The translations under genes were made by a program, and so were the position numbers. From a virus: a stretch of 64,000 nt of DNA. The DNA lies in IMG/VR virus record IMGVR_UViG_3300010885_004110, positions 1 through 64,000 of that record; one strand, given 5' to 3'. This document shows, one piece after another, positions 34,301-55,224 of this stretch. The notes beneath the pieces are model-generated. The model made no database searches, was not told the origin of the DNA, and saw nothing but the letters and a program-made list of their open reading frames with translations. Each line of letters begins with the position of its first letter. Position 1 is the first letter of the stretch.

Positions 34301-37300
34301 CAACACCTAATGAAATACTAACATTAATTTTTTGAGAGTTAGGACTTAATGTTAATAACGATCCTTCACTCCAATTGTGTTTACTCCAAAACATAAATTC
34401 TTTTGCAGAGGTAAACCAATCCATAGAAGCCTGAATTGTTGTATCATAACCATCAAATACAAATCCAATACTAATTAAGTATTCTTGATAGCCTAACATA
34501 AAGTCAACAACTTCTTGAATTGAAGTCATTAATGTACCGTAATTCAATCGATTAGTTACTAATTTATTATAATTTCTTCTTTTAAATGCTTGAACTGCTC
34601 CGGTTACAGGCAGTGCAGAAAGTTGTTTCCATTCTGCACTATCAAATGTATTGTTACTAGTATGGCTTCTAAGACTTCTAAAATAAGTCTGGCCGTACTT
34701 AACAATTACACCGTTGCCGTAAAATTTGTTGGAAGTCCATGATAAGAAATTCTCACTAACTCCGCCAACAGCTATTAACGGATCACTCTGAGAGCTAATG
34801 GGTTTAAAATATGTAAAGAACGGATCTTTAGTATCATATCCGCTGATTTTCCAACCCCGAGTTGTTTTTTCAATAATGATACCGCTGTATGCTACAGAAT
34901 ATATTGGAGAACTTACATTAAAAATAATGTCATAGTTTTCTTGAGGAACAAAAACACTACTGGTTGTGGATTTAGGATTTTTACTATCTAATACATATTT
35001 TTGTTGTTGTTGATCAACAAATCCCGATAATCTATTTGAAAGAGCAACATCAATGTTAGTAAGTTTATTAACTAACGTAGAGACTGGTATTGTTTTGCTC
35101 TTTAAGTAATTTACCACGTAAGAAACTAAACCAGAAACTGGTGTTGATTCAGAATTTTCAAAAATTACATCACTTAATCTAGCAAACGATTTAGAAGTTT
35201 TGTTTATTGTTTGACCTAATAAATTTAGTGCAGTTTCTGATTTATTAAATGTATCGGTGATGTATTCAAACGGTTTCAATAAACACAAGGCTAGTACTAC
35301 AGCAAAAGGCCATTCGGAACTAGCACTCCATGCAGCTTCTACAGGTCCCTTGTCGCCTAATATAAAAGTACCTTTATTATTAATAAGAGTAAAGTTACCA
35401 GCTAATCCGGAATTTAAAGGGCTTAATAAATTACCATCTCCGTCTACTGGAATGTGCTGCATTATCGACGGACGTTTGTATCTATCGCGTGTTCCGGCTC
35501 TTTCGCCCTGACGAATAACACCGTCACGCAAATCTTCCCAAAGAATTAAATTATTAGAAGTGTAAGGTGCTGGACCATATTCACTTTCCCACCATGTTGG
35601 TTTTTCTGAAAATCCTAACATTTCCCACGGACATGTATGTGGGCGATCGGTATCATAAAACCATTTGTAAACACCTCTCCAGTATCCAGGTAAATTTTTT
35701 GTCTTTGATGGATCTACCATATTAGAATACGTATAGGTAAAACTATTTTCACTATCAAAGAATGTATTATTTACATAGTCAATATTTGTATCCGCAATCC
35801 ATTTTAAAAATTCAGGGGAGGCAATATTATCAAGTTCGGATTTGCCATACTCTGCATTTCCATAATATCCGCCCAAGATTGCATCGTTATCAAAAATAGT
35901 TTCATCGTATGTTTGTTTAATATTATTGTAAATTCTTTTTTCTAATTCTAATAATATATCATCTCGGAAATCGCCATAGGCAATAGTAATGCTACCGTCG
36001 TGTCCTTGAATAACTTCTTTTGGCACAACATACGTATTATCTAAAAATTTCTTAGGTTCGTATTTTCTATACAATCCTAATTTTGTAGGAGTCGGAGGAA
36101 TAAAATTTGAAGAAGTAGAAACATATTCACGTATTTCTATCGTATCGCCTTCAACTAGCGGAATACTTAAACTAACAAATCCAAATGTTGAATTAAAACT
36201 ATAATCTCTACCAGTTAATAATTGAGTATTATTATAATAAACATATACAGCCTTAGAACTTAATGTTTGTAAATCAAATTTTTGTGATAGTGCAAATGTC
36301 TTAATACCTTCGTCTTCAACTGTGTAGTTCAATACCGAATACGCCCCGCTTCCGATCATATCTGAATCAGAAAAAGGTCTAGATGAATTTTGTGTTTTAC
36401 TAATTTCTTCTAATATAATATCTACATAATCAAGAGGTTGTTGATCATAATATAAACGATATGCAATATCAACAAATGTATTTTTAAAATCAGTATAAGA
36501 TTTTTTAGCATATTGTATAGATTTTACAATATTAATTTCTTTATCACATAGTAACACTGCTGCTAACGGAGCAATATTACTGTGTTTTAAAAATCGTCTT
36601 GCTTTATTTTCGTACCCTGAAATATTTCTAAGATTACTAGTACCCGGATATATTCCAGCAAATTCGTCTGTTACTTCAATACCTGTTAATATATGATCAG
36701 ACGCCTGACCTAAAGTAAAAGAAGTAATTTTGTCATTTAACGGATTTTTTTCTAATCCTAAAGGAATTTCATAATAGCCGGTTGTTGGATCTAAATCTGC
36801 AAATATTTTAATAGTAACAACATCCCCAACTTTAAATTTACTGCTAAATGTAAAAGTGTCTACTAATCGAGTCCATGTTTTTTTACTAATTATGCCGTTA
36901 ACATAAAATATAATTTTATTAATATCAGTTTCTAATACTGATTCCCAGTCAACGGCGGTTGAAACAATAGTGTTAGTAATTTCAGTAACTATTGTCGAAT
37001 CAATAATAGGTTGGCTAAGTGTACGATCTAAAACTTTCCATCCATTATCATAAGATACAATACCATTAAATTTATAGTATCCTGTAAAAATATTTTCTGT
37101 ATAGATAGTCTGAGCAATTTTATATGTGAATTGATCTTTATCTAAATCAAATTCAAATTGAATGTCGCCTACATTATCAATATTCAAATAAGAAAGACTA
37201 AATCCTAATTCTTTATCAATAACACTGTTGCCAATAACATAACTTAATAATTCAGTACCCTGAAATGAGCTAATTGGATATTTGTCAACATCTGATAAAC

Positions 37301-39131
37301 TAACTAATTCTTTATCAAATATATCAAATAACGGCGACTGATTTACTTTGGTTTTTAATTGACTTTTAATCCAAGCGGTTCCGTTAAAATGATACATTAA
37401 CCCCTTGTAATTATTACCTCTACGAATTAACGCAGATTCACCAAGTATCGATTCAGCATCATCAGCTTTTTGTAAATTAATTTGTGTGACATTATTATGT
37501 CGAATAAATCGCACAACATATATTTTATTGTTTGCTAAACTATCGGTGTCAGCGGTAACTAAAACTCGAGCACCGTCAAATAGTTGTTCACCGTCTACAA
37601 TATATCCTCTACTACCTTCAATGACTGAAAATATATCTGTTGTAAAATTGTCTATGTAATCAACTGTCTGTTTTGCAATACTACCATGATTAAATAATTG
37701 TAGATTAGATTTAAACTCAATAATAGGACGTTTTGCTCGAGAAGTCTCAGCAGCTTCAAAACTTGTACCGTTAAACGAATGTGAAAAATCTAAAGTTTCT
37801 CTGTGAAACCAACGATTATATCGACTCCATGGATTCGAGTCAATGCTTGATTTTGAAATGGTTGTATAATCTTTTAAAGCAGGATATGCACTAGCATCAT
37901 CATACGGTTGGCTGTCAAAGCCGCCATTGTCAAATAATATTTCTGGGGCAGTTGCATTTAAATTTCCAGAAACGATCAAGTCTGAAAACTTGGTTAGAGT
38001 AATCTGTGTACCAACACCTTCAACAAGCCATCTATCATTATTGTTACTATATCGAGTCGGCGTAACTGATCCAACAAAATATAAAAGCATACCGTTAGAT
38101 AACGATATGTTGTTACTACTAGTATACGATGCTTTGCCAATAATTTCTTTTTCTATGTCAATTTTCGTATTGGTCTCAATATTCCCAATTATAAATCTTC
38201 CAAACTTATTAACATCTGTACTACTTTGATAAAATAATACATCAGGGGCATCAAATGGTACTTCAAACGTAACTGTACCGTTTTCAATTCCGTTATTTGT
38301 TATTCCCTTGGTATAATCTAAAGAATTTGTTAACAAAATATTATCAACAAATTCCCAATCTTGATTTTCAAGATTAATTGTACTGCCGTCTCCTGAATTA
38401 ATGTTATCTTTGGCTCTCCACAATTTTTCATCAAATACAACCAATTGTCCTTTGGTATATGAAACTAAAGGATTGTATAATAGAGTACCGGTATCGATTG
38501 CAGTCTTGATTAAAAATCCATTGTTTGGAGCATTAATTTGAAATTTATAAGTTTGACCTCTATACAAGGTTAATGTTGGATTATTTGTCAATCCGTCGGG
38601 GGTAAACAAATAAACACTGCCTACTCCTAATCCAACTCTATATGTACTAGTAACAGTCTGTGATTGTCCTAAGATTTTGATAGGAGGTGGTCCTTCAGGG
38701 ACCCAATAATATTCTCTATAGTTAACAAACTTATCCCAATCGATTGGAGGATTCCAGGAATAATGTTCTTGATTTGTAGTAATTGCATCAAACTCTCCAG
38801 TATTTCCAAAGAATTTAATTTGATTTTTAAAATCAAGATAGTCGTAAAAATTCTTAATAACTCCGTCTTCTTTAATTATTACACCGGGTTCTAGCTGATA
38901 TCGACTTCTTAATGTTGCATCACTGTCCAAGTAAATATCTTTGCCATTATAAGTTTTTCCGTACCTACGTCCAATATATCCAACAGTTTTTTCCAATACG
39001 CCTGGCTGTACCAGCGGATCAACTACTGCTGATAAAAATTTAGAATTGGCTTCTGTTTGAAAAATCTGTGGTAATAACTCAACAGTTTTTCTAATTGGTA
39101 GTTGACTTTCTGGAAAAAATTCTTGTGCCAT
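25392..39131 (-). CDS. giant (4579 aa) baseplate wedge/adhesin protein, gp7-like position
   Basis: Uninterrupted ORF after the gp6-like gene; FG-GAP-like propeller repeats, CBM5/12-like modules, GSGYTSTP repeats. Confidence 0.75.
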   Translation of the reverse strand: MAQEFFPESQLPIRKTVELLPQIFQTEANSKFLSAVVDPLVQPGVLEKTVGYIGRRYGKTYNGKDIYLDSDATLRSRYQLEPGVIIKEDGVIKNFYDYLDFKNQIKFFGNTGEFDAITTNQEHYSWNPPIDWDKFVNYREYYWVPEGPPPIKILGQSQTVTSTYRVGLGVGSVYLFTPDGLTNNPTLTLYRGQTYKFQINAPNNGFLIKTAIDTGTLLYNPLVSYTKGQLVVFDEKLWRAKDNINSGDGSTINLENQDWEFVDNILLTNSLDYTKGITNNGIENGTVTFEVPFDAPDVLFYQSSTDVNKFGRFIIGNIETNTKIDIEKEIIGKASYTSSNNISLSNGMLLYFVGSVTPTRYSNNNDRWLVEGVGTQITLTKFSDLIVSGNLNATAPEILFDNGGFDSQPYDDASAYPALKDYTTISKSSIDSNPWSRYNRWFHRETLDFSHSFNGTSFEAAETSRAKRPIIEFKSNLQLFNHGSIAKQTVDYIDNFTTDIFSVIEGSRGYIVDGEQLFDGARVLVTADTDSLANNKIYVVRFIRHNNVTQINLQKADDAESILGESALIRRGNNYKGLMYHFNGTAWIKSQLKTKVNQSPLFDIFDKELVSLSDVDKYPISSFQGTELLSYVIGNSVIDKELGFSLSYLNIDNVGDIQFEFDLDKDQFTYKIAQTIYTENIFTGYYKFNGIVSYDNGWKVLDRTLSQPIIDSTIVTEITNTIVSTAVDWESVLETDINKIIFYVNGIISKKTWTRLVDTFTFSSKFKVGDVVTIKIFADLDPTTGYYEIPLGLEKNPLNDKITSFTLGQASDHILTGIEVTDEFAGIYPGTSNLRNISGYENKARRFLKHSNIAPLAAVLLCDKEINIVKSIQYAKKSYTDFKNTFVDIAYRLYYDQQPLDYVDIILEEISKTQNSSRPFSDSDMIGSGAYSVLNYTVEDEGIKTFALSQKFDLQTLSSKAVYVYYNNTQLLTGRDYSFNSTFGFVSLSIPLVEGDTIEIREYVSTSSNFIPPTPTKLGLYRKYEPKKFLDNTYVVPKEVIQGHDGSITIAYGDFRDDILLELEKRIYNNIKQTYDETIFDNDAILGGYYGNAEYGKSELDNIASPEFLKWIADTNIDYVNNTFFDSENSFTYTYSNMVDPSKTKNLPGYWRGVYKWFYDTDRPHTCPWEMLGFSEKPTWWESEYGPAPYTSNNLILWEDLRDGVIRQGERAGTRDRYKRPSIMQHIPVDGDGNLLSPLNSGLAGNFTLINNKGTFILGDKGPVEAAWSASSEWPFAVVLALCLLKPFEYITDTFNKSETALNLLGQTINKTSKSFARLSDVIFENSESTPVSGLVSYVVNYLKSKTIPVSTLVNKLTNIDVALSNRLSGFVDQQQQKYVLDSKNPKSTTSSVFVPQENYDIIFNVSSPIYSVAYSGIIIEKTTRGWKISGYDTKDPFFTYFKPISSQSDPLIAVGGVSENFLSWTSNKFYGNGVIVKYGQTYFRSLRSHTSNNTFDSAEWKQLSALPVTGAVQAFKRRNYNKLVTNRLNYGTLMTSIQEVVDFMLGYQEYLISIGFVFDGYDTTIQASMDWFTSAKEFMFWSKHNWSEGSLLTLSPNSQKINVSISLGVADSFLDSFYDYQILQDDGTPLGPQYINVSRDYKNLILSTTNTNRGIYFIRANFVLKEHIVIFDDRTVFNDVMYDKPTGYRQERIKSRGFRTVDWDGDYTSPGFLFDNVNIAVWQPFTDYRLGDIVAHKSYNWTSKTNQLGTQEFIDANWTKLDSTPTKGLVANFDYRINQFEDYYEVEADGVGSSQRELARHAIGYQPREYLQGLAEDEISQFRLYQGFIREKGTNNAVTKVFDKLSRTADDSVVLNEEWAFKVGELGGVEQLREIEFEISKESIQINPQPTLIVAEKSTVIVDQNLRIDPTKFTLAPLPFTSNITPLASFDKATRSAGPVHLNDIDFVVKIRDDILNINIASVADNDHFWVTFDSYKWTVLRYNEALSLRIVSVLKDGTDVILSLSRIHNLSIGDIIGIIYVANLTGFYKITAATSTTITVKTTSSDNPAIEDSASAVIGIFTEAKANTYQDLDYRTTALLATGSKIWIDSNEAGKWEVVEKIKQYQTYDLVDYGITAPLNTGTAIAYIEPLKQIATSLPASGYVMIYTDRTAVNQSLGLKQMVAPVDDLSAPVAGVFGEVIAVSPDYKWLAIASPRATAVPSHYIGEYDPASEYITGSIVLSDGKLWKAVTNVPRVPVDERDDGSSIWITIGSHLWEPATIVDATPIGQGTGFVNQGMISLYKYQNDQWENVYNFVSPRPATDERFGSSVSFGVSGKTYYMAVSATGSMCDPQIGAATGRGRVYMYYYNGVTWSHHENTNYLGIYDTTGATVYPTGSVVWAEDSLWQAVNETAGDGSSISIDSVDWLKLDPVSTSSSLPTNVSVNDDGSTLAMGLLSTSQQAELVKDGDNFGHSLCMSRDASVLVVGVPNSDGQFFNNYKGIWNTYQEYVANDVVKYQDSYYILLDVDTGDSATVSKNERPDEGSPWEVTGDSTYTTTGKVFVYRRNTAGVYNLTQTLTAQTLGDGVIASGDKFGTAIDIDASGTTLVVTSPLADLVRENQGAAYVFKYSATSLKFELSQQLQTYENYTNEYFGTSVSISAATERIVIGAKDAGYTLPTTFGAGTEFDSRRTIFSGRLRFPGQVYVYERKDQGYFLAEKLEAEFKAYESFGASVDCTNSVIAVGSPTYTLDGDEIGRVRLFKKTANKDSINIIRSQTDLVDLDSIKNIELYNKQKNLKIADVDIIDHYKLKILSVAEEDIKFKTVYDPATYIKATDNETIDETQAWLENHVGEVWWDLSTVKFINAEQDELSYRVGNWSTQVHGSSVDVYEWVETPLLPSEWSLLADTVEGLAESISGQPKHTDDTVYNTKILYNATTGNPTSTMYYYWVKNKTVLPINKDRRTSVATIASYIDSPISTGIPFVALLGSDKLAFYNFSSIISTDSVLVNIEYNKNSVEANPVHREYQLLTEGVADNIPAEFLEKKWIDSLVGFDEAGNTVPDINLSEKQRYGLSFRPRQTMFVNREKALKIVIDNINAILLTRPFVDTINFKNLSATDSIPSFLLNRYDLEVNNFIDLEQVGTVKVRQAIFSVNIINGEVDTIDIIDPGFGYRTTPYIVIEGTGTGAKAVITIDSQGRVNSITVTNRGKKYLSAFVKIRAFSVLVNNDSSDKGFWSIYSWDQQRKIFYRSRTQGYDTKIYWEYTDWWASGFNPTSRIAEEIISLYEEPTVSLSVGALLRVKEYSNGGWAVLEKTKTGLGNLLNNYNLVGRENGTIFIKDSLYNALTTALGYDNVGSYDVAYYDLQPIAELRNILKAAKEDIFVDDLRVEWNKLFFSSVRYAFSEQEYIDWAFKTSFLNAIHNVGDLDQRPNYKNDNLDQFRNYIEEVKPYRTTIREYTSRYTENENFYGGTIDFDLPPAYSVRDGKILPVSAQYNRFNEYPWKWWADNNGYSITSIAVANAGSNYTSPPKVIITGNGTGTTATAFIANGKVSGIRVDTKGSGYTSTPIVTLVGGNGTSQDIATAAAIIGDTKVRSFDLTMKFDRITKSGLYKSFTQSQTFIATGYSAVFNLKYAPTHDKTKIQVIKNGTIILKNEYTISLYKDSIDGYSVLKGKLGFNIAPKAGDIIIIDYDKNDEYLDAVNRINKYYAPTAGMKGNEIGQLMTGIDFGGVQVQGTTFDITGGWDALPWFTDSWDSVESNSDYHYVADGSTTYVVLPYIPENNSPISIYLKRVDATRAVRIDDPFFLVYDGITPQPNGRVTAPDSALMPTFVGDGSTNVIQLHDAITDLPYVTVSTGDVLIFRKLDSDGSVTITDVNLLDTRISGGSLSNMGGAYVTATGLTPEEIVIDGDKFVTPDQVPAPEENVPGQVLDSLSIKVFTSTDPGSTPLQSKVLISNGATKIFNIGLSIVESKSVIVYVDKIKQENPTDYIINFVDNTIEFEVPPAQGTIIEIISIGRGGIGLLDYQEFVADGTTSLFLTKALYSQTASVLVTVDGIAIDTGFVNSGEFIDTQDKTMVQFGDMPTYRQVVKIICFGNSTETDSTGYPFVRINQQTIVYDGSTRSFDLDKFVPLSRGSVLSAMLVEVNGVQLTGIDTTYTVYNGTNNAIELGIDPAEAIGTITSGAIKVYINNILQRFVIDYTYNGNLNLIEISTENLSIEDIIRIETSTRTEFSIVSGNIVIDSAVPLAVDDIINVTWFSEYPTMDIISDEYTGGKVQYQLSRTPLSVNYVWVYKNGVRLTQDRDYHISSPRSVLYLTDNTNSSDKIKIVQFGNIIYAPPRAFEIFKDMLNNYHYKRYSKKNSVKLVNDVNYYDTTIEVTNGTLLPDPLPIRNIPGVIIINNERIEYFAKTENTISQLRRGSLGTAIAEKHNADSFVINVGFTETLPYTETQERADFTSDGSTILVGPLDFIPTQSSRTTWYRDTIPTGYGPCDTVEVFVGGKRLIKNPMSIYNEDLGISSPSSDIMIEAEFSVDGVSKYIRLTESVPAGTRITIIRKQGKIWYDRGQNTPSKGISLLSNNTPVANFIANSSTELPE

Positions 39132-48424: not shown

Positions 48425-49294
48425 ATGGAGAAACCACCGTCAATGACACCTATACCTAAAGTAAAATATCTAACGAACAAGGATCTACTAAAAGAAATAC
48501 ATTTAAGCAAAAATACATATTGTTCATATGTAGATCCTAGCTATGGAGATTATGATATTATTCTCCCTAGTCTAGAAAAACTTAATATTAGAACTGTAGC
48601 AGAAGCCAAAAGAAATAAAGCAATTAAAATGAGCAAGAAAGCTCACGAGATAGCGCAATCGGGAGGAAAGAAATTTCCTGCCAAAGACTACGAAGTAGAT
48701 TATAAAAAAATTCAGAAAACAGACGTAGTATTTCGTATTATGACGTTTGAACATGTGCCATTGGCGCCCGGTCGTAAAAAGACTCTCAAGAATACTGCTG
48801 ACAGTCATGAAAAAGTAAATTTTCCTCCATTCCAACATTGGAAATACGACGACAATGATAATTTGATCTTAGTCGGCAAGAGTCATTGGAAGGGAGACTT
48901 TGTTACTGGAACGTTTAATAAAGAACACGGAAAGATGACTAACAATCTTGCACGTATGTTTTTAAAACTTTGTGAGCGTTATGCTACTAGAGGTAATGTT
49001 CGTGGATACACCTACAACGATGAAATGCGTGGGCAGGCTATTCTTCAACTAACTCAAATAGGACTTCAATTCGATGAAAGCAAATCTGACAATCCTTTTG
49101 CTTATTATACTGCTGCTGTTACAAATAGTTTTGTGCGTATCATTAACATCGAGAAACGAAATCAAAATATCAGAGACGATATTCTCGAAATGAATGGTAT
49201 GAATCCTAGTTGGACTAGACAGAATGCCAGTGGAGGTAGTCAATATAACGGCCCTGCTGCTGCTGGAGACGGCGGTGGTAGCGATTGGGATTGA
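48425..49294 (+). CDS. late-transcription sigma factor, gp55-like
   Basis: YLTNKDLL, RGYTYNDEM, FDESKSDNPFAYYT, IEKRNQ; upstream of gp47/gp46 as in T4. True start may be ATG 48443. Confidence 0.85.
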   Translation: MEKPPSMTPIPKVKYLTNKDLLKEIHLSKNTYCSYVDPSYGDYDIILPSLEKLNIRTVAEAKRNKAIKMSKKAHEIAQSGGKKFPAKDYEVDYKKIQKTDVVFRIMTFEHVPLAPGRKKTLKNTADSHEKVNFPPFQHWKYDDNDNLILVGKSHWKGDFVTGTFNKEHGKMTNNLARMFLKLCERYATRGNVRGYTYNDEMRGQAILQLTQIGLQFDESKSDNPFAYYTAAVTNSFVRIINIEKRNQNIRDDILEMNGMNPSWTRQNASGGSQYNGPAAAGDGGGSDWD

Positions 49295-49334: not shown

Positions 49335-50345
49335 ATGTCATTATTTAAAAAAGTAGCGTGTTTTACTGATATCCATTTTGGTCTTAAATCAGGAAGTCGT
49401 ACACATAATCAAGATTGCGAAGATTTTGTAACTTGGTTTTGTGAAACTGCCAAGGCAGCAGGTGCAGAAACTTGCATCTTCCTTGGCGACTGGCATCATA
49501 ATCGCAGTACTACAGATGTTAGTACTATGAATTATACCGTTTCAAACTTAGAGAAGCTTAATAATAACTTTGAAAAAGTATATCTTATCATGGGTAATCA
49601 TGATGAGTTTTATAAAGACAAACGTGAAATCCATAGTCTAGAATTTGCTAGACTGTTCCCTAATATTCAAGTTGTTAATAAAACACACACTGACGGTGAT
49701 GTTACTATTATGCCGTGGTTAGTTGGGGACGAATGGAAAACTATTCCAAATATTAAAAGCAAATACATATTTGGACATTTAGAACTACCTAGCTTCTACA
49801 TGAATGCCATGGTACAGATGCCGGATCACGGGCAGGTACAGAGTAGTCATTTTGTTAATCAAGAATATGTATTCACTGGTCATTTTCACAAAAGACAAAA
49901 TTCTCAAAACATATGGTATATGGGTAATGCATTCCCACACAACTACGCCGATGCAGGTGACGATGATCGAGGTATGATGTTATTAGAATGGGGCAACAAA
50001 CCTGAATTTAAAACTTGGCCTGGGCAACCAATTTATAGAACTTATAAACTTAGTCAAATTATTGATACCCCTGATGCTCTACTCAGAGAAAAAATGCATT
50101 GTCGTGTTACTATCGACTTGCCTATTAGTTTTGAAGAAGCAAACTTTATCAAAGAACAATTTATTCCACAATACAACTTGCGTGAACTAATGCTAATACC
50201 GGAAAAGGTAGAAGTAGAATCAAATTCAGTTCCTATAGATATTAATTTTGAAAGCGTAGATACAATAGTCATGAATCAAATTAATGCTATTGAGAGCGAT
50301 AGTTATAACAAAGCAATGTTGTTAGACATTTACAAAGACCTATGA
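49335..50345 (+). CDS. recombination nuclease gp47 (Mre11/SbcD)
   Basis: TDIHFG, LGDWHH, MGNHD, GHLE, TGHFH. Confidence 0.93.
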   Translation: MSLFKKVACFTDIHFGLKSGSRTHNQDCEDFVTWFCETAKAAGAETCIFLGDWHHNRSTTDVSTMNYTVSNLEKLNNNFEKVYLIMGNHDEFYKDKREIHSLEFARLFPNIQVVNKTHTDGDVTIMPWLVGDEWKTIPNIKSKYIFGHLELPSFYMNAMVQMPDHGQVQSSHFVNQEYVFTGHFHKRQNSQNIWYMGNAFPHNYADAGDDDRGMMLLEWGNKPEFKTWPGQPIYRTYKLSQIIDTPDALLREKMHCRVTIDLPISFEEANFIKEQFIPQYNLRELMLIPEKVEVESNSVPIDINFESVDTIVMNQINAIESDSYNKAMLLDIYKDL

Positions 50346-52120
50346 TAAAAATTAAAAATTTAACAGTACGTAATTTTATGAGTGTTGGCGCACAAACTCA
50401 AGCTATTGGGTTTGACAAAGGAAATCTAACATTGGTGTTAGGTGAAAATTTAGATTTAGGTGGAGACGATAGTGGAGCTCGTAATGGTACTGGCAAAACA
50501 ACTATTATTAACGGACTCAGTTATGCTATTTTTGGCACAGCATTAACAAACATTAAAAAAGATAACCTCATTAATAAAATTAACGGCAAGGGAATGTTGT
50601 GTACTGTTAGTTTTGAGAAAGACGGTGTTGATTATCATATTGAAAGAGGTCGCAAGCCTAACCTATTGAAGTTTAGTATTAACGGACAAGAACAAGAATC
50701 TACAGATCGAGACGAAAGTCAAGGTGATAGTAGAGAAACACAGAAAGCCATCGATGAGTTATTCGGTCTAAGTCATGATATGTTTAAAAATATCATAGCA
50801 TTGAACACTTACACTGAACCGTTTTTGTCTATGAAATCTTCTGATCAAAGAAATATTATTGAGCAATTGTTAGGTATTACACAGTTGTCTGAAAAAGCAG
50901 AAGCATTGAAGGAACAAATTAAATTATCCAAAGATGCTATTGTAACAGAGAATACAAAAATTGAAACAATTAAAATTTCAAATGAAAAAATACAACAAAG
51001 TATTGATGCTCTAGAACGTAAACAACGCATGTGGGAAGAACAGCATGAAACTAATGTTACTAATCTAGCAAAAGCCATTGACAAACTATTGCATATTAAC
51101 ATCGACGATGAAATTCTGGCGCATCGAGCATTAGATGCACACAACGTAAAACGTAAAACTATTAACGATCTTAATAGTTGGATTAAGCGATGTGAATTAG
51201 ATGAAACTAGAGAACAAAAACTAATTGACACTCTTAAGATAGAAATTGCTAGTTTAGAAAATCATACATGTCATAGTTGTGGACAGTCATTTCATGACGA
51301 CAAACAAGTTATATTGCTAGAAAAGAAGAAAAAAGATCTACAAGAAGCTGCATTACAGGCATTAGCTACTAACGGTCAATTACTCGAACACTCCGAGGCG
51401 CTTGCAACTCTAGGAGAGTTAGATGCTATGCCAGAAGTAACTTACGATAATCTAGAACAAGCGTTAAATCACAAAAATACATTGAGTAGTCTAGAACGTG
51501 ATTTAGAAGTTAAATGTTCAGAAAGCAATCCTTATCTTGAACAAATTAACGAACTTAAAAATACCGCTGTACAAGACATCAACTGGGATTCAGTAAATCA
51601 ACTGGTTAAACTTAAAGATCATCAAGAGTTTTTATACAAGTTATTAACAAATAAAGATAGTTTTGTTCGTAAACGAATAATTGATCAGAACCTAGCCTTC
51701 TTAAATCAACGATTAACCTACTATCTTGATAAGATTGGATTACCACACATTGTAGAATTTCAGAACGATTTAACGGTGATTATTACACAACTTGGGCAGG
51801 ACTTAGACTTCGATAATCTCAGTAGAGGTGAACGAAATAGACTCATATTGAGCATGAGTTGGGCGTTCCGTGATGTGTGGGAAAACCTATATACTTCTAT
51901 TAATTTGTTGTTTATTGACGAATTAGTAGATAGCGGCATGGATTCTAGTGGTGTTGAATCCAGCATTGCGGTATTAAAACGCATGAGTCGAGAGCGTGAT
52001 AAGAATATTTTCTTAATTTCACATCGAGACGATTTAGCTAGCCGTGTAAATCATGTACTTAAAGTTATTAAAGAGAATGGATTTACTAGCTATTCAAATG
52101 ACGTGGAGATTGTTGCTTGA
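50342..52120 (+). CDS. recombination ATPase gp46 (Rad50/SbcC)
   Basis: NGTGKTT Walker A, CHSC zinc hook, LSRGE signature, LFIDE Walker B, ISH. Confidence 0.93.
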   Translation: MIKIKNLTVRNFMSVGAQTQAIGFDKGNLTLVLGENLDLGGDDSGARNGTGKTTIINGLSYAIFGTALTNIKKDNLINKINGKGMLCTVSFEKDGVDYHIERGRKPNLLKFSINGQEQESTDRDESQGDSRETQKAIDELFGLSHDMFKNIIALNTYTEPFLSMKSSDQRNIIEQLLGITQLSEKAEALKEQIKLSKDAIVTENTKIETIKISNEKIQQSIDALERKQRMWEEQHETNVTNLAKAIDKLLHINIDDEILAHRALDAHNVKRKTINDLNSWIKRCELDETREQKLIDTLKIEIASLENHTCHSCGQSFHDDKQVILLEKKKKDLQEAALQALATNGQLLEHSEALATLGELDAMPEVTYDNLEQALNHKNTLSSLERDLEVKCSESNPYLEQINELKNTAVQDINWDSVNQLVKLKDHQEFLYKLLTNKDSFVRKRIIDQNLAFLNQRLTYYLDKIGLPHIVEFQNDLTVIITQLGQDLDFDNLSRGERNRLILSMSWAFRDVWENLYTSINLLFIDELVDSGMDSSGVESSIAVLKRMSRERDKNIFLISHRDDLASRVNHVLKVIKENGFTSYSNDVEIVA

Positions 52121-52347
52121 GTACAGATTCGCATGATAACATGATTCATGCATTTCAAGAATATTTTAAATGGCAGACCCGTTTTGAATACACAGGTGTA
52201 GACGAAGCGGGAATTAAGGCACGATATTGGTTATCAGAAATTAGAAACGAAGCAAGCATTAGGCGAACAGAAATCCAAAATAAGCGAAAAGATAGGCGAA
52301 CAGCCAGAAATGGCAAAACAGGAAGGCCACGTAAACTAATTACGTGA
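52117..52347 (+). CDS. small basic hypothetical protein
   Basis: TTG start overlapping the gp46 stop; Arg-rich C-terminus. Confidence 0.6.
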   Translation: MSTDSHDNMIHAFQEYFKWQTRFEYTGVDEAGIKARYWLSEIRNEASIRRTEIQNKRKDRRTARNGKTGRPRKLIT

Positions 52348-52781
52348 TGACATGGACTTATAAGAAGAAAGAAGTTACTGAAATCTCTGAAGATTACCTT
52401 GGTTTCGTATATCTTATTACTAATGTTGTCTCTGGTCGCAAGTATATAGGCAAAAAACTAGCTAAGTTTGCAAAGACAACTTATAAAACGGTTACTTTGA
52501 AGAACGGCAAAAAGAAGAAAAAGAAAATTAGAGGCAAGATCGAAAGCGACTGGAAGGACTATTATGGTTCTAGCGATGCGTTAACAGCAGATATACAGGC
52601 ATTAGGCAAAGACAATTTCACCAGAGAAATACTATTCTACTGCAAAAACAAATCAGAATGCAGTTATATTGAGGCAAGAGAACAATTCAAACATAAAGTT
52701 CTAGAATCAACTGACTGGTACAACGGTCATATACAAGTTCGAGTTCACGGCTCACACATTATTAAGAATAAGCTACCGTAG
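52347..52781 (+). CDS. minimal GIY-YIG family endonuclease
   Basis: GFVYLITN...KYIGKK, YYGSS, FTREIL, YIEAREQ, WYN; no appended DNA-binding domain. Confidence 0.8.
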   Translation: MTWTYKKKEVTEISEDYLGFVYLITNVVSGRKYIGKKLAKFAKTTYKTVTLKNGKKKKKKIRGKIESDWKDYYGSSDALTADIQALGKDNFTREILFYCKNKSECSYIEAREQFKHKVLESTDWYNGHIQVRVHGSHIIKNKLP

Positions 52782-53280
52782 GCACATAGTAGGCTCAATA
52801 AATTTAGGCAAGTTATCGCCAAACAAGCCCGCACAGGCGATTATATTGTGCCCAAAATCCGTTCTGATGTGTGACGGTAAGGAATCTCTTATTGGCGAAG
52901 AGTAGCAAATCACTATCCTTAACAGGACGACGATCGGATATGCCTTTCATAAAACCGGTTTGATTTGTAAGAGAATTCAGTAGACAAGGCTAAAAGAAGG
53001 GAGAAAAACCCTTAGACTAATGTATGTGTTAGCGTATGTATGTTAGTCCACCGTCAGTAATAAGACAAAGCTCGTGGTACCGGCTGACCGCCACTGTAAT
53101 GCTTTAACGCTAAGTGTATTGTGCAACTCACATAATGCTAACTTTACCCTGCTCGGGTAAAGTGTGACTGAACAATCTACATAATACTTAAACTGCTTCG
53201 CAGTAAAATATCTCATCATTAAAGAAGAAAAAATTCGTTGAGCGTTAAGCGAAAACGAATACGAGCGTTAGCTCGTAAAT
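52782..53280 (+). ncRNA. putative large structured non-coding RNA (or structured replication origin)
   Basis: About 525 nt with no ORF in the track; more than 10 complementary segments, crossing long-range pairings, G-U pairs favouring the + strand. Confidence 0.55.
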
Positions 53281-53313
53281 ACAATAAATAACACATATAT
53301 CTTTAGGTTGAGC

Positions 53314-55224
53314 ATGAGAATACAACAATTATCTACTAGTAAGCATTATCTCTATGAAGGACTGGACTATAGTAATAGAAAAACTATGGTTTTATGGGAA
53401 AGTGCTGGCTTACAATTAAAAGAAGCAGCTCTAACAGCTGATCAAATACAAAGTCTATTTGCTGAGATTGAGAAATCAGCAACAGATGCTGGGGGTAATC
53501 GTACAGCCCTAGGTATTGGCAAAGATGCAATGTCTGCTGTTAATAAAGCATGGGAAGATCTAAAAACAAAGATTCAAGATAGTGGTCCGATTAAAGCTGT
53601 TGATCAGAAATATGATGATGTTGTTGGGAAGATCGAAAAAGGTTTAGGTGGCCCAGACAATGCTGTTAATCAAGTAATTCAAAAATATCGTCAATTTGCT
53701 AAAGATCATCCTATTGCACAGGGTCTAATCTATTCAGCACTAATTGCTGCTGCTGGTATTAGTGGTGCAGGTCTAGGTGGAGCAGCAGTATTAGGACTGC
53801 TCAAGATGACAGACAAGCTGCTACAAGGTGAAAAATTTAGTAGTGCTGCATATGCTGGCGGTAAAACTGGTGCTATGGCCTACGGTGCAAGTAAAATTGG
53901 AGATTATGTCAAGGGCAAAATGGCAGACAAAGATGCCTATGATGCCATGGGTGATGCACAGGATCTAAGACAACAACTAGGCGATCCTAATGGCGAATTG
54001 CCTGGCGCTAGTTTAAAAGTAGGCCAAGAACTTCCGGACGGCGAAACTATTACTGGATTAGATTCAAGTAACCCAAATGCAGGTGTTACTATTACAAAAC
54101 CAGATGGCGGAACATATACAGTTAGTCGAGACACTGCCCAGTCAATGACAGGTCAAACTGGTATTAGTCCTCAATCAACTGGCCCTGTTTCAACAGGTGC
54201 TGCTAGTGATCCTTCTGCAGGTGTTACTGACACTGTAGCCAAGCGTGGTAATTCGGGTTGGGACACAATGAAGGCAAATACAAATCCTGATGGTAGTCCA
54301 TTGACAGTAGATCAAATAAATGCTGCTAAGGCTTCGTTACGTGCAGGTAATGCAACTGATATGTCCACCCCGACAGATGCTGGATCAACAGTTGCATCTA
54401 AAGCAGCAGATGTTGCTGTTGGTGCTGGTAGTCCGCCACCGGCCGGAGCAGCATTTAATTCTGCCTATCTACAACAGGTAGTAGATGCAGAAGGTAAAAG
54501 CGGTATAAGATTTAAAATTAGTCCCGAGGATGCACAAAAAGCTCTAGATTGGCAAGACTCAAATGGCGGACAACTTGTACAGGCTGCTAGTACCGCAGGC
54601 AAAGCTGCCTCTGGATATAGTAAAGACTACTTAGAAAAAGTCTTAAGTGGTGATCATCCACGCCCAATGATTTCAAAAGAAAAAGCTGCTGCCTTATTGA
54701 AGAGTATGGAAAGCGTTAATCGTAGTGGAAAACGATTAAGTGAAGGTCAGATTTATCTAGTTTTTAATCGTGTCTGTACTGTTAACAATTATATGTTATC
54801 AGAAGGTCGATTAGTTGAAGGTCCTATGGATTGGGCTAAAGGACTTGCAGGTAAAGCAATAGGTAAAGCTAAGACAGTTGGACATAATTTAACAACTAAA
54901 GTCACTGCCGACAAATTAAACTCAGCTTGGCAAAAAGCTGGAAGTCCAATGGACAGTGCCAAACTTAAGGCATTCTTAACACAGCAAGGTGTTTCACCGG
55001 AAGTAGTAGACACTGTATATTCATCTATGAAAATAACAGATGCACCAGCCGATCAACAAGGACAAGCAGTTGACTTTGAACAAGTTAAAGCAATGATTGC
55101 TAAATTACCTTTAGATAGAAAAGAAAGATTATTAAAATATATACAAAAGAATTCAGGATCTGCTGCGCCAGCAGCACCGAATAGAGATGCCGGAGACGGC
55201 CGCATAGAACCAACACTCGCATAA
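53314..55224 (+). CDS. probable internal head/ejection protein
   Basis: Late TAAATA boxes at 53276 and 53285; many LxE motifs; hydrophobic Gly-rich segment. Confidence 0.55.
   Translation: MRIQQLSTSKHYLYEGLDYSNRKTMVLWESAGLQLKEAALTADQIQSLFAEIEKSATDAGGNRTALGIGKDAMSAVNKAWEDLKTKIQDSGPIKAVDQKYDDVVGKIEKGLGGPDNAVNQVIQKYRQFAKDHPIAQGLIYSALIAAAGISGAGLGGAAVLGLLKMTDKLLQGEKFSSAAYAGGKTGAMAYGASKIGDYVKGKMADKDAYDAMGDAQDLRQQLGDPNGELPGASLKVGQELPDGETITGLDSSNPNAGVTITKPDGGTYTVSRDTAQSMTGQTGISPQSTGPVSTGAASDPSAGVTDTVAKRGNSGWDTMKANTNPDGSPLTVDQINAAKASLRAGNATDMSTPTDAGSTVASKAADVAVGAGSPPPAGAAFNSAYLQQVVDAEGKSGIRFKISPEDAQKALDWQDSNGGQLVQAASTAGKAASGYSKDYLEKVLSGDHPRPMISKEKAAALLKSMESVNRSGKRLSEGQIYLVFNRVCTVNNYMLSEGRLVEGPMDWAKGLAGKAIGKAKTVGHNLTTKVTADKLNSAWQKAGSPMDSAKLKAFLTQQGVSPEVVDTVYSSMKITDAPADQQGQAVDFEQVKAMIAKLPLDRKERLLKYIQKNSGSAAPAAPNRDAGDGRIEPTLA

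What the first reader, a model, noticed from the sequence alone, without database searches (positions are those of the whole stretch)
52347..53290. Minimal GIY-YIG nuclease followed by a ~500-nt multi-pseudoknot putative RNA: candidate nuclease-RNA system
Seen: this is the only long ORF-free stretch in 64 kb. Local stems: ATCGCC 52815/GGCGAT 52836, CTCTT 52886/AAGAG 52898, TCCT 52916/AGGA 52924, AAGGG 52997/CCCTT 53009, a long GU-rich stem 53015-53048, GTGG..CGG/CCG..CCAC 53074-53094, ACTTTACCC 53141/GGGTAAAGT 53155. Crossing long-range pairs: ATCCG 52857/CGGAT 52935, GCAAATCA 52905/TGATTTGT 52961, TGACGGT 52872/ACCGTCA 53050, GCCTT 52942/AAGGC 52986, TTAGCGT 53029/ACGCTAA 53107. G-U pairs work only on the + strand, which points to RNA. 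The upstream GIY-YIG protein lacks the DNA-binding tail typical of Seg/I-TevI homing enzymes and carries a Lys-rich insert (KTVTLKNGKKKKKKIRGK). Known: endonuclease-associated large RNAs exist (HEARO/omegaRNA with IscB). Inference: this may be an undescribed ribonucleoprotein, ribozyme or large phage ncRNA. I do not recognise it as group I/II intron, RNase P or tmRNA.
Basis: partly seen in the sequence, partly recalled or inferred. Interest (0 to 1): 0.85.

Follow-up and report, generated by a model that had tools for sequence, protein, structure and literature searches.

The report
Large knotted RNA behind phage nuclease
The gene-free gap behind a small DNA-cutting enzyme gene of this uncultured T4-like freshwater phage encodes a real, roughly 450-base, multiply knotted non-coding RNA whose first third is a catalogued but unexplained RNA motif and whose function is still unknown.

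Summary
The 526-nt ORF-free gap (52782-53307) is real. It holds one + strand gene for a ~452-nt, multiply pseudoknotted non-coding RNA (52826-53277). Its first 145 nt match the orphan Rfam motif Polynucleobacter-1 over its full length (77 bits; cut-off 37). The other ~300 nt are in no Rfam family but are equally conserved. In 71 non-redundant phage relatives, 84 of 106 proposed pairs show compensatory changes.

Two single-stranded 7-nt boxes (ACAUAAU at 53130 and 53179) are letter-identical in 70/71 and 68/68 relatives, although about ten words occur. I found no complement.

The upstream 144-aa protein is a domain-only SegE-type GIY-YIG nuclease. It is linked to the RNA in 64/65 informative RNA loci and 68/72 nuclease loci. 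However, the RNA also occurs without it in bacterial islands, beside DUF6641 and a small integrase. The nuclease family also occurs without the RNA in cultured phages. An obligate nuclease-RNA particle is therefore unproven.

The RNA is not a 5' leader, because a late promoter or a convergent gene follows it. Its function is unknown. My best reading is an autonomous, trans-acting scaffold RNA whose boxes are read by base pairing.

This scan has already reported the same RNA family in several hundred other genomes.

The parts
52347..52781 (+). Gene for a 144-aa domain-only GIY-YIG nuclease (SegE type). Its ATG overlaps the stop of the 76-aa ORF 52117-52347 by one base.
   Evidence: Pfam PF19835 E 6e-34, residues 3-129 of 144. 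PHROG 447 E 1e-37. The AF2 model (pLDDT 78) resembles the I-TevI catalytic domain, with weak E-values. Sequence read.
52826..53277 (+). Full-length structured non-coding RNA: about 452 nt, 14 helices and 4 pseudoknots.
   Evidence: Profile of 71 relatives matches 52825-53277, E 6e-87, one copy in the 122.6-kb record. 106-pair structure: 83.9% of cells paired against 72.1% shuffled (0/500) and 36-45% when slid; 84 pairs have compensatory change.
52826..52970 (+). 5' domain, equal to Rfam RF01718 Polynucleobacter-1 (P1-P6, PK0).
   Evidence: cmscan 77.3 bits against gathering score 37, model positions 1-141 of 141.
52971..53277 (+). 3' domain, in no Rfam family (P7-P14, PK1, PK2, both boxes).
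   Evidence: No Rfam match at E<=1. Conservation 0.6-0.86 across 71 loci. Helices covary.
52826..52839 (+). PK0: 52826-52828 pairs with 52837-52839, which lie in the loop of P1.
   Evidence: 91.6% paired, 2 of 3 pairs covary (GGC/GCC to GAC/GUC).
52942..52990 (+). PK3: the end of the P6 loop (GCC core, 52942-52946) pairs with the junction 52986-52990.
   Evidence: The exact complement of the 3-nt loop core is present in 67/71 loci against 43.4 +/- 2.8 in 1000 permutations (max 52). Types: GCC 37, CCU 16, GCU 13, CCC 1.
53029..53113 (+). PK1: the loop of P8 (53029-53035) pairs with 53107-53113.
   Evidence: 94.4% paired, 7 of 7 pairs covary.
53054..53087 (+). PK2: 53054-53057 pairs with the loop of P10 (53084-53087).
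   Evidence: 97.9% paired, 3 of 4 pairs covary.
53130..53136 (+). Box 1, ACAUAAU, single-stranded, preceded by ACUC.
   Evidence: Identical to box 2 in 70/71 and 68/68 loci. The mutual information with box 2 equals the column entropy in 124 distinct RNAs.
53179..53185 (+). Box 2, ACAUAAU, single-stranded, preceded by AUCU, 49 nt after box 1.
   Evidence: As for box 1. Spacing is 47-61 nt in the family, mode 50.
53234..53277 (+). Terminal hairpins P13 (conserved internal GAGCG..AGCGAA) and P14; the end of the conserved block.
   Evidence: P13 84.8-94.9% paired. P14 97.9% paired with 6/6 pairs covarying. Read on the - strand, P14 plus the T-rich stretch scores as terminator-like.
53285..53290 (+). 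TAAATA, a T4-type late-promoter-like core ahead of the next gene (53308/53315-55224).
   Evidence: In 23 of 23 relatives whose next gene is on the + strand, TAAATA lies within 90 nt after P14. The consensus itself is recalled, not tested.

Best explanation
The gap encodes one copy of a large (about 452 nt), multiply pseudoknotted non-coding RNA on the + strand. It is the full-length form of the orphan Rfam motif Polynucleobacter-1.

Shown: the RNA family exists, with its fold (14 helices, 4 pseudoknots), its strand and its borders. It carries two single-stranded 7-nt boxes that are kept identical while the word changes between genomes. In phages it is tightly linked to a domain-only GIY-YIG nuclease gene. 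It also occurs without that gene in bacterial islands.

Inferred: it is transcribed rightward as the tail of the gp55-like/SbcD/SbcC/orf76/GIY-YIG unit. In most relatives the upstream stop codon is 0-30 nt from the first helix, which leaves no room for a promoter. Transcription ends at hairpins P13/P14, and a late promoter then starts the next gene.

My committed reading is that it is an autonomous, trans-acting scaffold RNA. Its folded core presents the two identical boxes to one kind of partner, bound twice and read letter by letter. That partner is most likely a nucleic acid, DNA or RNA. The RNA probably acts in the same pathway as the small DNA-cutting or DNA-joining enzyme encoded beside it: GIY-YIG or PD-(D/E)XK nuclease in phages, mini tyrosine recombinase on bacterial islands.

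It is not a leader of the downstream gene and does not strictly need the GIY-YIG protein.
For: Family and fold:
- RF01718 scores 77.3 bits against a cut-off of 37, full length.
- Conservation runs through 52826-53277.
- 83.9% of 7272 cells are paired, against 72.1% shuffled and 36-45% slid. 84/106 pairs have changes on both sides; 0/500 shuffles reach this. PK3 is supported.
- G-U 482 against A-C 202 cells.

Boxes:
- Identical in 70/71 and 68/68 loci, with 10-11 words.
- The closest nuclease relatives (95-96% aa) carry GCAUAAU against the window's ACAUAAU.
- Mutual information with the twin box equals the column entropy; the next best partner scores 0.27-0.59.

End of a transcription unit:
- 109/109 upstream ORFs are on the same strand; the gap is under 90 nt in 104/109.
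- 23/23 loci with a + strand downstream gene have TAAATA after P14. 35/38 loci with a convergent gene have none.

Autonomy:
- RF01718 is above cut-off in 3 of 151 sampled bacterial genomes.
- In G055 the full RNA has two AGCGAAA boxes. It lies divergent from a DUF6641 gene, followed by a 224-aa ORF and a 212-aa integrase, next to ZorABCD.
- G008 has two GGCGAAA boxes and a DUF6641 gene.
- In phage L008 a PDDEXK_15 nuclease fills the slot.

Linkage:
- 64/65 informative RNA loci have the GIY-YIG gene within two genes upstream.
- 68/72 nuclease loci have the RNA within 250 nt.
Against: No transcript has been seen: no RNA run was listed for this stretch. Transcription, the 5' and 3' ends, and action in trans are all inferred.

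No partner for the boxes was found:
- No complement within +/-1.5 kb.
- No enrichment of the genome's own word in 650 kb of flanks: 48 seen against 52.7 expected on the same strand, 45 against 38.5 for the reverse complement.
- Ordinary counts in the 122.6-kb record: 18 and 17 against 21.8 expected.
- No tRNA genes.
- No special mutual information with GIY-YIG columns: ranks 179, 45 and 64 of 237.

Seven letters are few for specific base pairing. The boxes could be read by a protein instead. The 'same pathway as the neighbouring DNA enzyme' step rests only on gene neighbourhood, which in phages can be plain synteny. The bacterial context comes from 3 loci only.
Confidence: 0.5

Rival explanations
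1. Nuclease-RNA particle. The RNA binds the domain-only GIY-YIG protein as it leaves the ribosome and supplies target recognition, with the two boxes acting as short guides.
For: Bidirectional linkage: 64/65 and 68/72. The genes share a strand, and the stop codon abuts the first helix in most relatives. The protein has only 15 aa beyond the catalytic domain, plus a Lys-rich beta-hairpin. It is under stronger constraint than SbcC/SbcD: codon position 1+2 identity 0.78 against 0.70 over 741 pairs. Neighbours vary on both sides while the pair stays together. On bacterial islands the same RNA sits near another minimal DNA enzyme.
Against: The RNA stands without GIY-YIG in 3 bacterial genomes and in phage L008. 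The protein family is present in 505 cultured phage records, and the two inspected (S-CAM7, Melnitz-3) have no RNA behind it. One or two genes are inserted between nuclease and RNA in 6 of 65 loci. The boxes show no co-variation with the protein. There is no target complement. The RNA's own gene would be a perfect target. Seven nucleotides is far below known guide lengths (recalled).
Confidence: 0.08
2. Plain neighbours. The GIY-YIG gene is a resident or homing-type nuclease gene that merely sits upstream of a conserved RNA gene and supplies its transcription. There is no biochemical link.
For: A different nuclease family (PDDEXK_15) occupies the same slot in L008. In the window's clade the GIY-YIG ORF is far more alike than its flanks at silent sites: codon position 3 identity 0.72-0.79 against 0.46-0.65. 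The RNA (0.71-0.78) matches the flanks, as expected if the ORF alone was exchanged recently. RNA and protein each occur alone elsewhere. Seg-type nucleases of T4 sit next to conserved genes, including the tRNA cluster (recalled).
Against: The gene is present in 64/65 loci across lineages whose silent sites are saturated: position 3 identity 0.46 against 0.40 for SbcC. It is strongly constrained, unlike sporadic, decaying homing genes. No intact empty site was seen. The pair is kept while both flanks change.
Confidence: 0.25
3. A cis-acting 3' untranslated element of the nuclease operon: a terminator, a block to 3' exonucleases, or an autoregulator of nuclease translation.
For: The RNA always lies at the end of a rightward unit, directly after a stop codon. 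It ends in two hairpins, which score as terminator-like on the opposite strand.
Against: A 450-nt RNA with four covarying pseudoknots and long invariant single-stranded stretches is far more than such roles need. In bacteria it is a separate gene, divergent from its neighbour. It stays intact when other genes precede it. The in-step boxes are left unexplained.
Confidence: 0.08
4. A 5' leader or riboswitch of the downstream gene. The 2010 catalogue marked the motif as probably cis-regulatory.
Against: In 23/23 loci with a + strand downstream gene, a late-promoter-like TAAATA lies between the RNA and that gene. In 35/38 other loci the next gene converges on the RNA. Downstream genes belong to many unrelated clusters. 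About 300 conserved nt separate the Rfam motif from any downstream start.
Confidence: 0.03
5. Replication-primer or origin RNA (ColE1 RNA II-like), or a DNA-level element in which the identical 7-mers are crossover or slippage sites rather than RNA signals.
For: The position lies between recombination/replication genes and late genes. Identity of two direct 7-mers, whatever their sequence, is what crossover cores of tyrosine recombinases require (recalled), and a small integrase sits beside the bacterial copy.
Against: G-U against A-C asymmetry and compensatory changes show selection on the RNA fold around the boxes. No read joint links box 1 to box 2 in four DNA runs (weak). No recombinase was seen near the phage copies.
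Confidence: 0.05

Closest known systems
Polynucleobacter-1 RNA motif (Rfam RF01718; Weinberg et al. 2010, Genome Biol 11:R31, PMC2864571; table passage read)
   Same: Window 52826-52970 matches the whole 141-position model at 77.3 bits. Helices P1, P2, P3, P4 and P6 of the model covary in the phage relatives. The habitat is the same: fresh water, and small genomes of the order of a Rhodoferax-titled MAG.
   Different: The catalogued motif is only the first third. The RNA runs on for about 300 conserved nt, with 8 more helices, three more pseudoknots (PK1, PK2, PK3) and the two identical boxes. It is mostly a phage RNA. It is not placed as a 5' leader.
Large 'ornate' RNAs of unknown or emerging function: GOLLD, ROOL, OLE, HEARO (recalled; abstract of bioRxiv 10.1101/2024.12.08.627333 seen in a search listing)
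   Same: Size of several hundred nt, many pseudoknots, strong covariation, presence in phages or mobile DNA, no known biochemical function.
   Different: No Rfam match to any of them. Nothing here tests multimer formation. The in-step identical boxes are not a described feature of those RNAs (recalled).
Guide or bridge RNAs of mobile-element enzymes: omega-RNA of IscB/TnpB, IS110 bridge RNA (recalled; abstract of PMC10690162 seen in a search listing)
   Same: A structured RNA encoded directly beside, and on the same strand as, a small DNA enzyme on mobile DNA, with short variable segments inside a conserved scaffold.
   Different: The enzymes here are GIY-YIG, PD-(D/E)XK or a tyrosine recombinase, not RuvC/HNH/DEDD. 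There is no 15-20-nt guide and no transposon ends. No target complement was found. RNA and enzyme each occur alone.
SegE / I-TevI type GIY-YIG homing nucleases
   Same: Pfam SegE_GIY-YIG domain at E 6e-34. The predicted fold is nearest to the I-TevI catalytic domain (TM 0.62-0.67 by target length). The setting is a T4-like phage.
   Different: There is no C-terminal DNA-binding domain (144 aa in all). The protein has an extra Lys-rich beta-hairpin. It is present in almost every relative and is strongly constrained, rather than sporadic. It is widely mis-annotated as 'NAD synthetase'.

Membership tests
Rfam RF01718 Polynucleobacter-1 | Covariance-model score at or above the curated gathering score, over the whole model | tested here: met
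   77.3 bits against 37; model positions 1-141 of 141.
Rfam RF01718 Polynucleobacter-1 | Consensus helices kept by compensatory change in relatives | tested here: met
   Percent of cells paired: P1 98.6, P2 80.4, P3 91.9, P6 94.4, P4 69.4 (inner six pairs). 4-5 pairs covary in each helix.
Rfam RF01718 Polynucleobacter-1 | Placement as a probable cis-regulatory 5' element (as tabulated in 2010) | tested here: not met
   A late-promoter-like TAAATA lies between RNA and next gene in 23/23 loci; the next gene converges in 35/38 others. This feature is an annotation, not part of the model.
GIY-YIG nuclease superfamily, SegE type | Profile match to the catalytic domain | tested here: met
   PF19835 scores 117 bits against a cut-off of 25, profile positions 1-123 of 123. 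The general PF01541 profile gives only E 0.018.
GIY-YIG nuclease superfamily, SegE type | Conserved motif residues (GxY ... YxG, later Arg/Glu/Asn) | tested here: met
   G19, Y22, Y33, G35, R93, E109 and N126 are invariant in 25 relatives. Their catalytic role was not tested.
GIY-YIG nuclease superfamily, SegE type | GIY-YIG fold | tested here: inconclusive
   AF2 model pLDDT 78. The only fold-like Foldseek hits are I-TevI 1ln0/1mk0 (probability 0.84-0.91, TM 0.62-0.67 by target), but E is 0.27-0.37.
Homing endonuclease of the I-TevI/Seg kind | Separate DNA-binding domain joined to the catalytic domain | tested here: not met
   Only 15 residues follow the domain. 94 relatives are 105-159 aa long, the shortest cut by contig ends.
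Homing endonuclease of the I-TevI/Seg kind | Sporadic presence, with empty sites in close relatives | tested here: not met
   Present in 64 of 65 informative loci. The one exception carries another nuclease.
Nuclease guide RNA (omega-RNA / HEARO type) | Variable guide of about 15-20 nt at one end, matching a DNA target | tested here: not met
   Only two 7-nt variable boxes; no complement found.
Nuclease guide RNA (omega-RNA / HEARO type) | Obligate co-occurrence of RNA and nuclease | tested here: not met
   RNA without GIY-YIG in bacteria and in L008. Nuclease without RNA in S-CAM7 and Melnitz-3.
Nuclease guide RNA (omega-RNA / HEARO type) | Physical binding of RNA and nuclease | not testable with these tools
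Group I/II intron, RNase P RNA, tmRNA | Match to the family model | tested here: not met
   No Rfam match at E<=1 in 52300-53400 other than RF01718 and one chance snoRNA hit. ARAGORN finds no tRNA or tmRNA.

The most novel reading that the evidence does not exclude
The RNA is the DNA-recognition subunit for minimal, domain-only DNA enzymes of unrelated folds: GIY-YIG or PD-(D/E)XK nuclease in phages, a mini tyrosine recombinase on bacterial islands. Its two identical 7-nt boxes each pair with one copy of the same short DNA core. They thereby bridge two DNA sites for cutting or joining. This would be a new kind of RNA-directed homing or recombination module.
Probability: 0.07. Interest if true: 0.95.

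Novelty: new variant of a known kind. Interest (0 to 1): 0.66.

Why it matters
Large RNAs with several pseudoknots and long invariant single strands are rare, and those understood so far are mostly ribozymes or cores of RNA-protein machines. It also sits on bacterial islands, yet only its first third is catalogued and nothing is known of its function.

The two boxes that change in step give a direct experimental handle: mutate one, then both. The steady neighbourhood of minimal DNA-cutting or DNA-joining enzymes points to a role in DNA transactions of mobile elements.

If the boxes are read by base pairing with DNA, this would be a new RNA-directed system. If not, it is still a new large RNA class worth structural study. 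The work also corrects the motif's listing as a probable 5' regulatory element, and the widespread 'NAD synthetase' label on the nuclease family.

Tried and rejected
Known RNA classes. The whole window at Rfam gathering thresholds and 52300-53400 at E<=1 gave only RF01718, plus a chance snoRNA hit (21 bits against a cut-off of 44). ARAGORN found no tRNA or tmRNA in the window or in the 122.6-kb record.

Coding. No ORF of 60 aa or more lies in the gap. The longest stop-free run in 124 relatives has a median of 68 codons, range 41-128, in any frame. I did not test frame conservation further.

Thermodynamics. The z-scores of -2.2 and -2.0 do not separate the strands.

Reader of the boxes:
- No exact complement at a consistent place within +/-1.5 kb in 71 loci.
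- No enrichment of a genome's own word or its complement in 650 kb of flanks.
- Ordinary counts in the whole record.
- No third covarying column in 124 RNAs.
- No consistent third copy: 8 of 124 have stray extra copies or parse badly.
- No special mutual information with GIY-YIG columns.
- I considered and dropped several readings on sequence grounds alone: tRNA anticodon loop, box C/D K-turn, -10 promoter element, MotA box, and translational bypass (take-off codon plus stop).
- A test for compensating changes elsewhere in close relatives with another word was not feasible. The relatives are only about 75% identical, and I held only 20 kb of them.

Expression. No RNA holder was listed. Laying four DNA runs showed only that the nuclease and RNA bins collect contigs of many related phages. 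No clean joint removes the cassette or links the boxes. I draw nothing from it.

Bacteria by pattern.

DUF6641. Not found in the phage record. Only 3 of 16 DUF6641 loci in 8 of 151 genomes have the RNA beside them.

Structure search. Foldseek E-values for the nuclease model are weak. No sequence relative has a solved structure. NCBIfam gave nothing.

Literature:
- 'Polynucleobacter-1': 1 paper; I read its table passage.
- 'GIY-YIG' + 'structured RNA' + 'phage' + 'covariation': 57 papers; listing read.
- 'GIY-YIG' + 'RNA-guided' + 'ncRNA': 3 papers; listing read.
- T4-like / freshwater / noncoding RNA / homing endonuclease terms: 11 papers; listing read.
- 'DUF6641': 0 papers.
None describes the full-length RNA. 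I claim absence only for these searches.

My crude ORF caller missed the intact nuclease gene of L017. I corrected this by alignment and translation, so '94 of 109' is an undercount.
Full report
WHAT IS AT THE COORDINATES. The window is the first 64 kb of a 122,587-base virus record that CheckV rates 35% complete. It has T4-like genes just upstream of the finding:
- a late sigma factor like gp55 (48425-49294, PHROG 12791, E 3e-78);
- SbcD-like (49335-50345) and SbcC-like (50342-52120) nuclease subunits;
- a 76-aa ORF (52117-52347);
- the flagged ORF.
That ORF most likely starts at the ATG 52347, which shares one base with the upstream stop, and ends at 52781. It is a GIY-YIG protein: Pfam SegE_GIY-YIG at E 6e-34, covering residues 3-129 of 144. 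The following 526 nt (52782-53307) are the longest stretch of the window without an ORF of 60 aa or more; the next longest is 292 nt.

A KNOWN MOTIF COVERS THE FIRST THIRD. Rfam places RF01718, the Polynucleobacter-1 RNA, at 52826-52970 on the + strand. The score is 77.3 bits against a gathering score of 37, over all 141 model positions. Nothing else in 52300-53400 reaches E<=1 except a chance snoRNA hit. There is no tRNA or tmRNA.

The only paper in the library that names the motif is Weinberg et al. 2010. Its table lists it as a probable RNA, probably cis-regulatory, from Burkholderiales and fresh water or estuary. I could not open its supplements.

RELATIVES.
- Reading the 90 nt upstream of each, I dropped 9 loci with unrelated, coding-like flanks (L018, L026, L046, L087, L028, L034, L038, L103, L121). 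I also dropped L001, which is the window itself, and later L039.
- Of the remaining 110 loci plus the window, 92 had 95 nt before and 400 nt after the pattern. After removing copies 95% or more identical, 71 were left.
- Conservation does not stop at the end of the Rfam motif. It runs to about 53277, and 53076-53185 is the best-kept part, with 0.6-0.86 identity to the window.
- A profile built from the 71 matches the window at 52825-53277 (E 6e-87), and only there in the whole record.

THE FOLD. Using mutual information and inspection of the alignment, I drew 106 pairs in 14 helices and three pseudoknots and counted them on the tool's own alignment of the 71 sequences.
- 83.9% of 7272 cells form standard pairs, against 72.1% after shuffling (0 of 500 shuffles as high) and 36-45% when the partners are slid by 1-3 columns.
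- 84 of 106 pairs show changes on both sides.
- Best supported, by percent of cells paired and pairs covarying: P1 (98.6%, 5/5), P6 (94.4%, 5/6), P9 (93.2%, 5/5), P14 (97.9%, 6/6), PK1 53029-35/53107-13 (94.4%, 7/7), PK2 53054-57/53084-87 (97.9%, 3/4) and PK0 52826-28/52837-39 (91.6%, 2/3).
- P7 and P8 score lower (51% and 63%) because MAFFT misaligns these variable-length hairpins, yet 4/5 and 13/13 of their pairs covary. P12 is weak.
- A fourth pseudoknot, PK3, joins the end of the P6 loop to the junction before P7. The exact complement of the 3-nt loop core is present in 67 of 71 sequences, against 43.4 +/- 2.8 (maximum 52) in 1000 permutations. Four pair types occur.
- G-U cells outnumber A-C cells 482 to 202, so the + strand is the folded one.
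- The folding energy of the window's copy alone is only mildly unusual and does not tell the strands apart.

Six of seven local stems and three of five long-range pairs are right; see the observation check. The following do not hold in the family:
- ATCGCC/GGCGAT is not supported, because its 5' arm lies outside the conserved block.
- ATCCG/CGGAT and TGACGGT/ACCGTCA do not hold in the family. The stretch around 53054 pairs with the P10 loop instead.

TWO BOXES THAT CHANGE IN STEP. After PK1 come two related units of about 49 nt. Each has GUGAC-like letters, then ACUC (unit 1) or AUCU (unit 2), then a 7-nt word, then a hairpin (P11, P12). (I take the term 'twin boxes' for these from earlier notes of this scan.)
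- In the window both words are ACAUAAU (53130-36 and 53179-85).
- The two words are identical in 70 of 71 non-redundant loci, with ten words of the form R-V-A-U-R-A-D. The exception, L037, is a divergent copy.
- In a second set found through the protein rather than the RNA, they are identical in 68 of 68, window included.
- In 124 distinct RNAs, each variable box column shares all of its entropy with its twin (1.0/1.0, 0.67/0.67, 1.0/1.0, 1.19/1.20 bits). The next best column scores 0.27-0.59.
- The phages with the most similar nuclease (95-96% aa) carry GCAUAAU, so the window lineage changed the first letter in both boxes.
- Spacing is 47-61 nt, mode 50.
- The letters flanking the boxes differ between the units in the same way in all genomes, so gene conversion of a 7-nt tract is an unlikely cause. 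Selection by a common reader is the simplest account. This is inference.

WHAT READS THE BOXES: NOT FOUND.
- There is no complement at a consistent place within 1.5 kb.
- There is no excess of a genome's own word or its complement in 650 kb of flanks: 48 against 52.7 expected, and 45 against 38.5.
- Counts in the 122.6-kb record are ordinary, 18 and 17 against 21.8 expected, and the record holds no tRNA genes.
- No third covarying column exists in the RNA.
- There is no special co-variation with columns of the nuclease.

LINK TO THE NUCLEASE GENE IN PHAGES.
- The ORF just upstream of the RNA is on the same strand in 109 of 109 loci that have one. It ends less than 90 nt before the RNA in 104 of them.
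- In 94 of 109 it is a homologue of the window's protein, at E 1e-45 to 1e-64.
- Among the 71 non-redundant loci, 65 have usable upstream sequence. Of these, 58 have the nuclease gene directly upstream; L017's intact gene was missed by my ORF caller. Six have it one or two genes further up, and one (L008) has a PDDEXK_15 nuclease in the same slot.
Of these, 68 have the RNA starting within 250 nt.
- The other four (L275, L276, L298, L299) have a 3'-domain match about 1.15 kb away. In 7 of the 72 only the 3' domain matches the profile, so the 5' domain is the more variable half.
- Genes on both sides of the pair vary.
- Against four related phages, the nuclease ORF is 0.87-0.90 identical in DNA. 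The flanking genes are 0.67-0.77 and the RNA 0.71-0.78. At third codon positions the figures are 0.72-0.79 for the nuclease against 0.46-0.65 for the flanks. This fits recent exchange of the ORF alone within this clade.
- Over all pairs, third positions are near saturation for both (0.46 against 0.40 for SbcC, 741 pairs), and the nuclease is the more constrained protein (0.78 against 0.70 at positions 1+2). It is an old, useful gene rather than a decaying selfish one.

THE PROTEIN. It has 144 residues and no second domain. Motif residues are invariant in 25 relatives. The AlphaFold model (pLDDT 78, pTM 0.68) has as its only fold-like PDB neighbours the catalytic domain of I-TevI, with weak E-values.

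The family is found in 505 cultured phage records, mostly T4-like cyanophages. All are below 60% identity, and the gene is often labelled 'NAD synthetase'. In the two I inspected, Synechococcus phage S-CAM7 and Methylophilales phage Melnitz-3 (the best hit, 52.5%), ordinary genes follow it and no RNA is detectable.

NOT A LEADER. Of the 71 non-redundant loci, 61 could be scored; 10 gave no data. Where the next gene (80 aa or more) is on the + strand (23 loci), all 23 have TAAATA, the core of the T4-type late promoter (recalled), within 90 nt after P14, mostly 1-16 nt. In the window it is at 53285-53290. Where the next gene converges (38 loci), 35 have none. The 3 exceptions look like miscalled + strand genes. 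The RNA therefore closes a rightward unit and lies upstream of the next gene's promoter.

BACTERIA. The pattern scan of bacterial genomes returned only chance hits (0 of 120). I therefore sampled 151 genomes of the order of one MAG (titled Rhodoferax sp.) with the Rfam model. Three small genomes (1.8-1.9 Mb) match above the cut-off and one matches weakly.
- In G055 the copy lies inside a 149-kb contig. The phage-built profile matches both domains, and both boxes read AGCGAAA behind ACUC and AUCU.
- In G008 both boxes read GGCGAAA (by eye).
- No GIY-YIG gene is near these copies. In all three loci with context, a DUF6641 gene lies divergently about 150-190 nt upstream.
- In G055 a 224-aa ORF and a 212-aa tyrosine integrase follow the RNA, and a complete type I Zorya system lies beyond the DUF6641 gene.
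- DUF6641 is wider than the RNA: 16 copies in 8 of 151 genomes, only 3 with the motif beside them. It is absent from the phage record. No paper in the library mentions it.

HOW I READ IT. Firm: this is a real RNA gene of a large family shared by freshwater T4-like phages and bacterial islands. Its fold, strand and borders are as given above, and its first third is RF01718.

Probable (inference): it is made as the tail of the upstream transcription unit in phages and from its own promoter region in bacteria, and it acts in trans.

I commit to a scaffold RNA whose two identical boxes bind one kind of partner twice, read letter by letter. That partner is most likely a nucleic acid, in the pathway of the small DNA enzyme encoded nearby (0.5 for the whole statement, less for its last step). 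Odds for the rivals:
- plain neighbourhood with no biochemical link, 0.25;
- a cis-acting 3' element, 0.08;
- a primer or DNA-level element, 0.05;
- a 5' leader, 0.03.

PRIOR NOTES OF THIS SCAN. Look-ups show that follow-up agents have described the same family many times: 493 notes in at least 334 genomes hold the words Polynucleobacter, GIY, YIG and RNA. Those notes include the in-step boxes and the island form with DUF6641 and a mini recombinase. I reached the extension, the boxes and the DUF6641/integrase context from my own calls before or independently of reading those notes, and the results agree. What I add:
- the reciprocal linkage counts;
- PK3;
- the late-promoter test against the leader reading;
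- the silent-site comparison of nuclease, RNA and flanks;
- the two cultured phages that have the nuclease without the RNA.

LIMITS.
- There is no expression data.
- The alignments are MAFFT or profile-HMM alignments, not covariance-model alignments.
- My ORF calls are crude.
- The phage loci come from two capped scans and are biased toward close relatives of the pattern and of the protein.
- The bacterial picture rests on three loci from one sampled order.

Noticed in passing
window 52347-52781 against L323-L326: The nuclease ORF is much more alike between the window and four related phages than any flanking gene, also at third codon positions (0.72-0.79 against 0.46-0.65). The RNA behaves like the flanks, except for its 5' domain against L326 (0.89). 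This looks like recent exchange of the ORF, with a short co-converted tract in one pair.
   Followed up: partly
A1 columns 414-496 (between P10 and the 3' strand of P9); loci L004, L040, L043, L053, L065, L093, L115, L119, L019, L097: Some relatives carry an extra 15-75-nt insert here, several with repeated TATAG-like words. It may be an optional extra hairpin or a small inserted repeat.
   Followed up: no
L275, L276, L285, L288, L291, L298, L299, L322: Only the 3' domain of the RNA matches the phage profile. In four of these loci it lies about 1.15 kb behind the nuclease gene. The 5' (Rfam) domain seems replaceable or strongly diverged.
   Followed up: no
L358 (G055:C4:64000-82000): The bacterial island order is ZorA-ZorB-ZorC-ZorD (complete type I Zorya), two small ORFs, DUF6641, the RNA, a 224-aa ORF of no family, and a 212-aa tyrosine integrase.
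   Followed up: partly
505 records of the phage collection: The SegE-type GIY-YIG family (PHROG 447; gp202 of P-SSM2) is widely annotated as 'NAD synthetase' in T4-like cyanophage genomes. This looks like a propagated mis-annotation.
   Followed up: partly
window 53260-53277, - strand: Read on the - strand, P14 followed by the T-rich complement of P13 scores as an intrinsic-terminator-like site. In many relatives a convergent gene ends 1-12 nt from P14. The two terminal hairpins may stop transcription from both sides.
   Followed up: no
window 50342-52781: SbcC, the 76-aa ORF and the nuclease ORF overlap by 4, 1 or 4 bases (ATGA/TGATG type junctions), which suggests translational coupling along the unit that ends in the RNA.
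   Followed up: no
window 25392-39131, - strand: A single 4579-aa ORF, with further ORFs of 1140 and 1524 aa nearby. These are giant virion-type proteins that I did not examine.
   Followed up: no
L358 8245-8330 and window 53240-53253: The invariant internal sequence of P13 (..AGCGAAA..) equals the box word of the bacterial copy in G055 (AGCGAAA). In G008 the two differ (GGCGAAA against AGCGAAG), so this may be chance or an ancestral relation.
   Followed up: no
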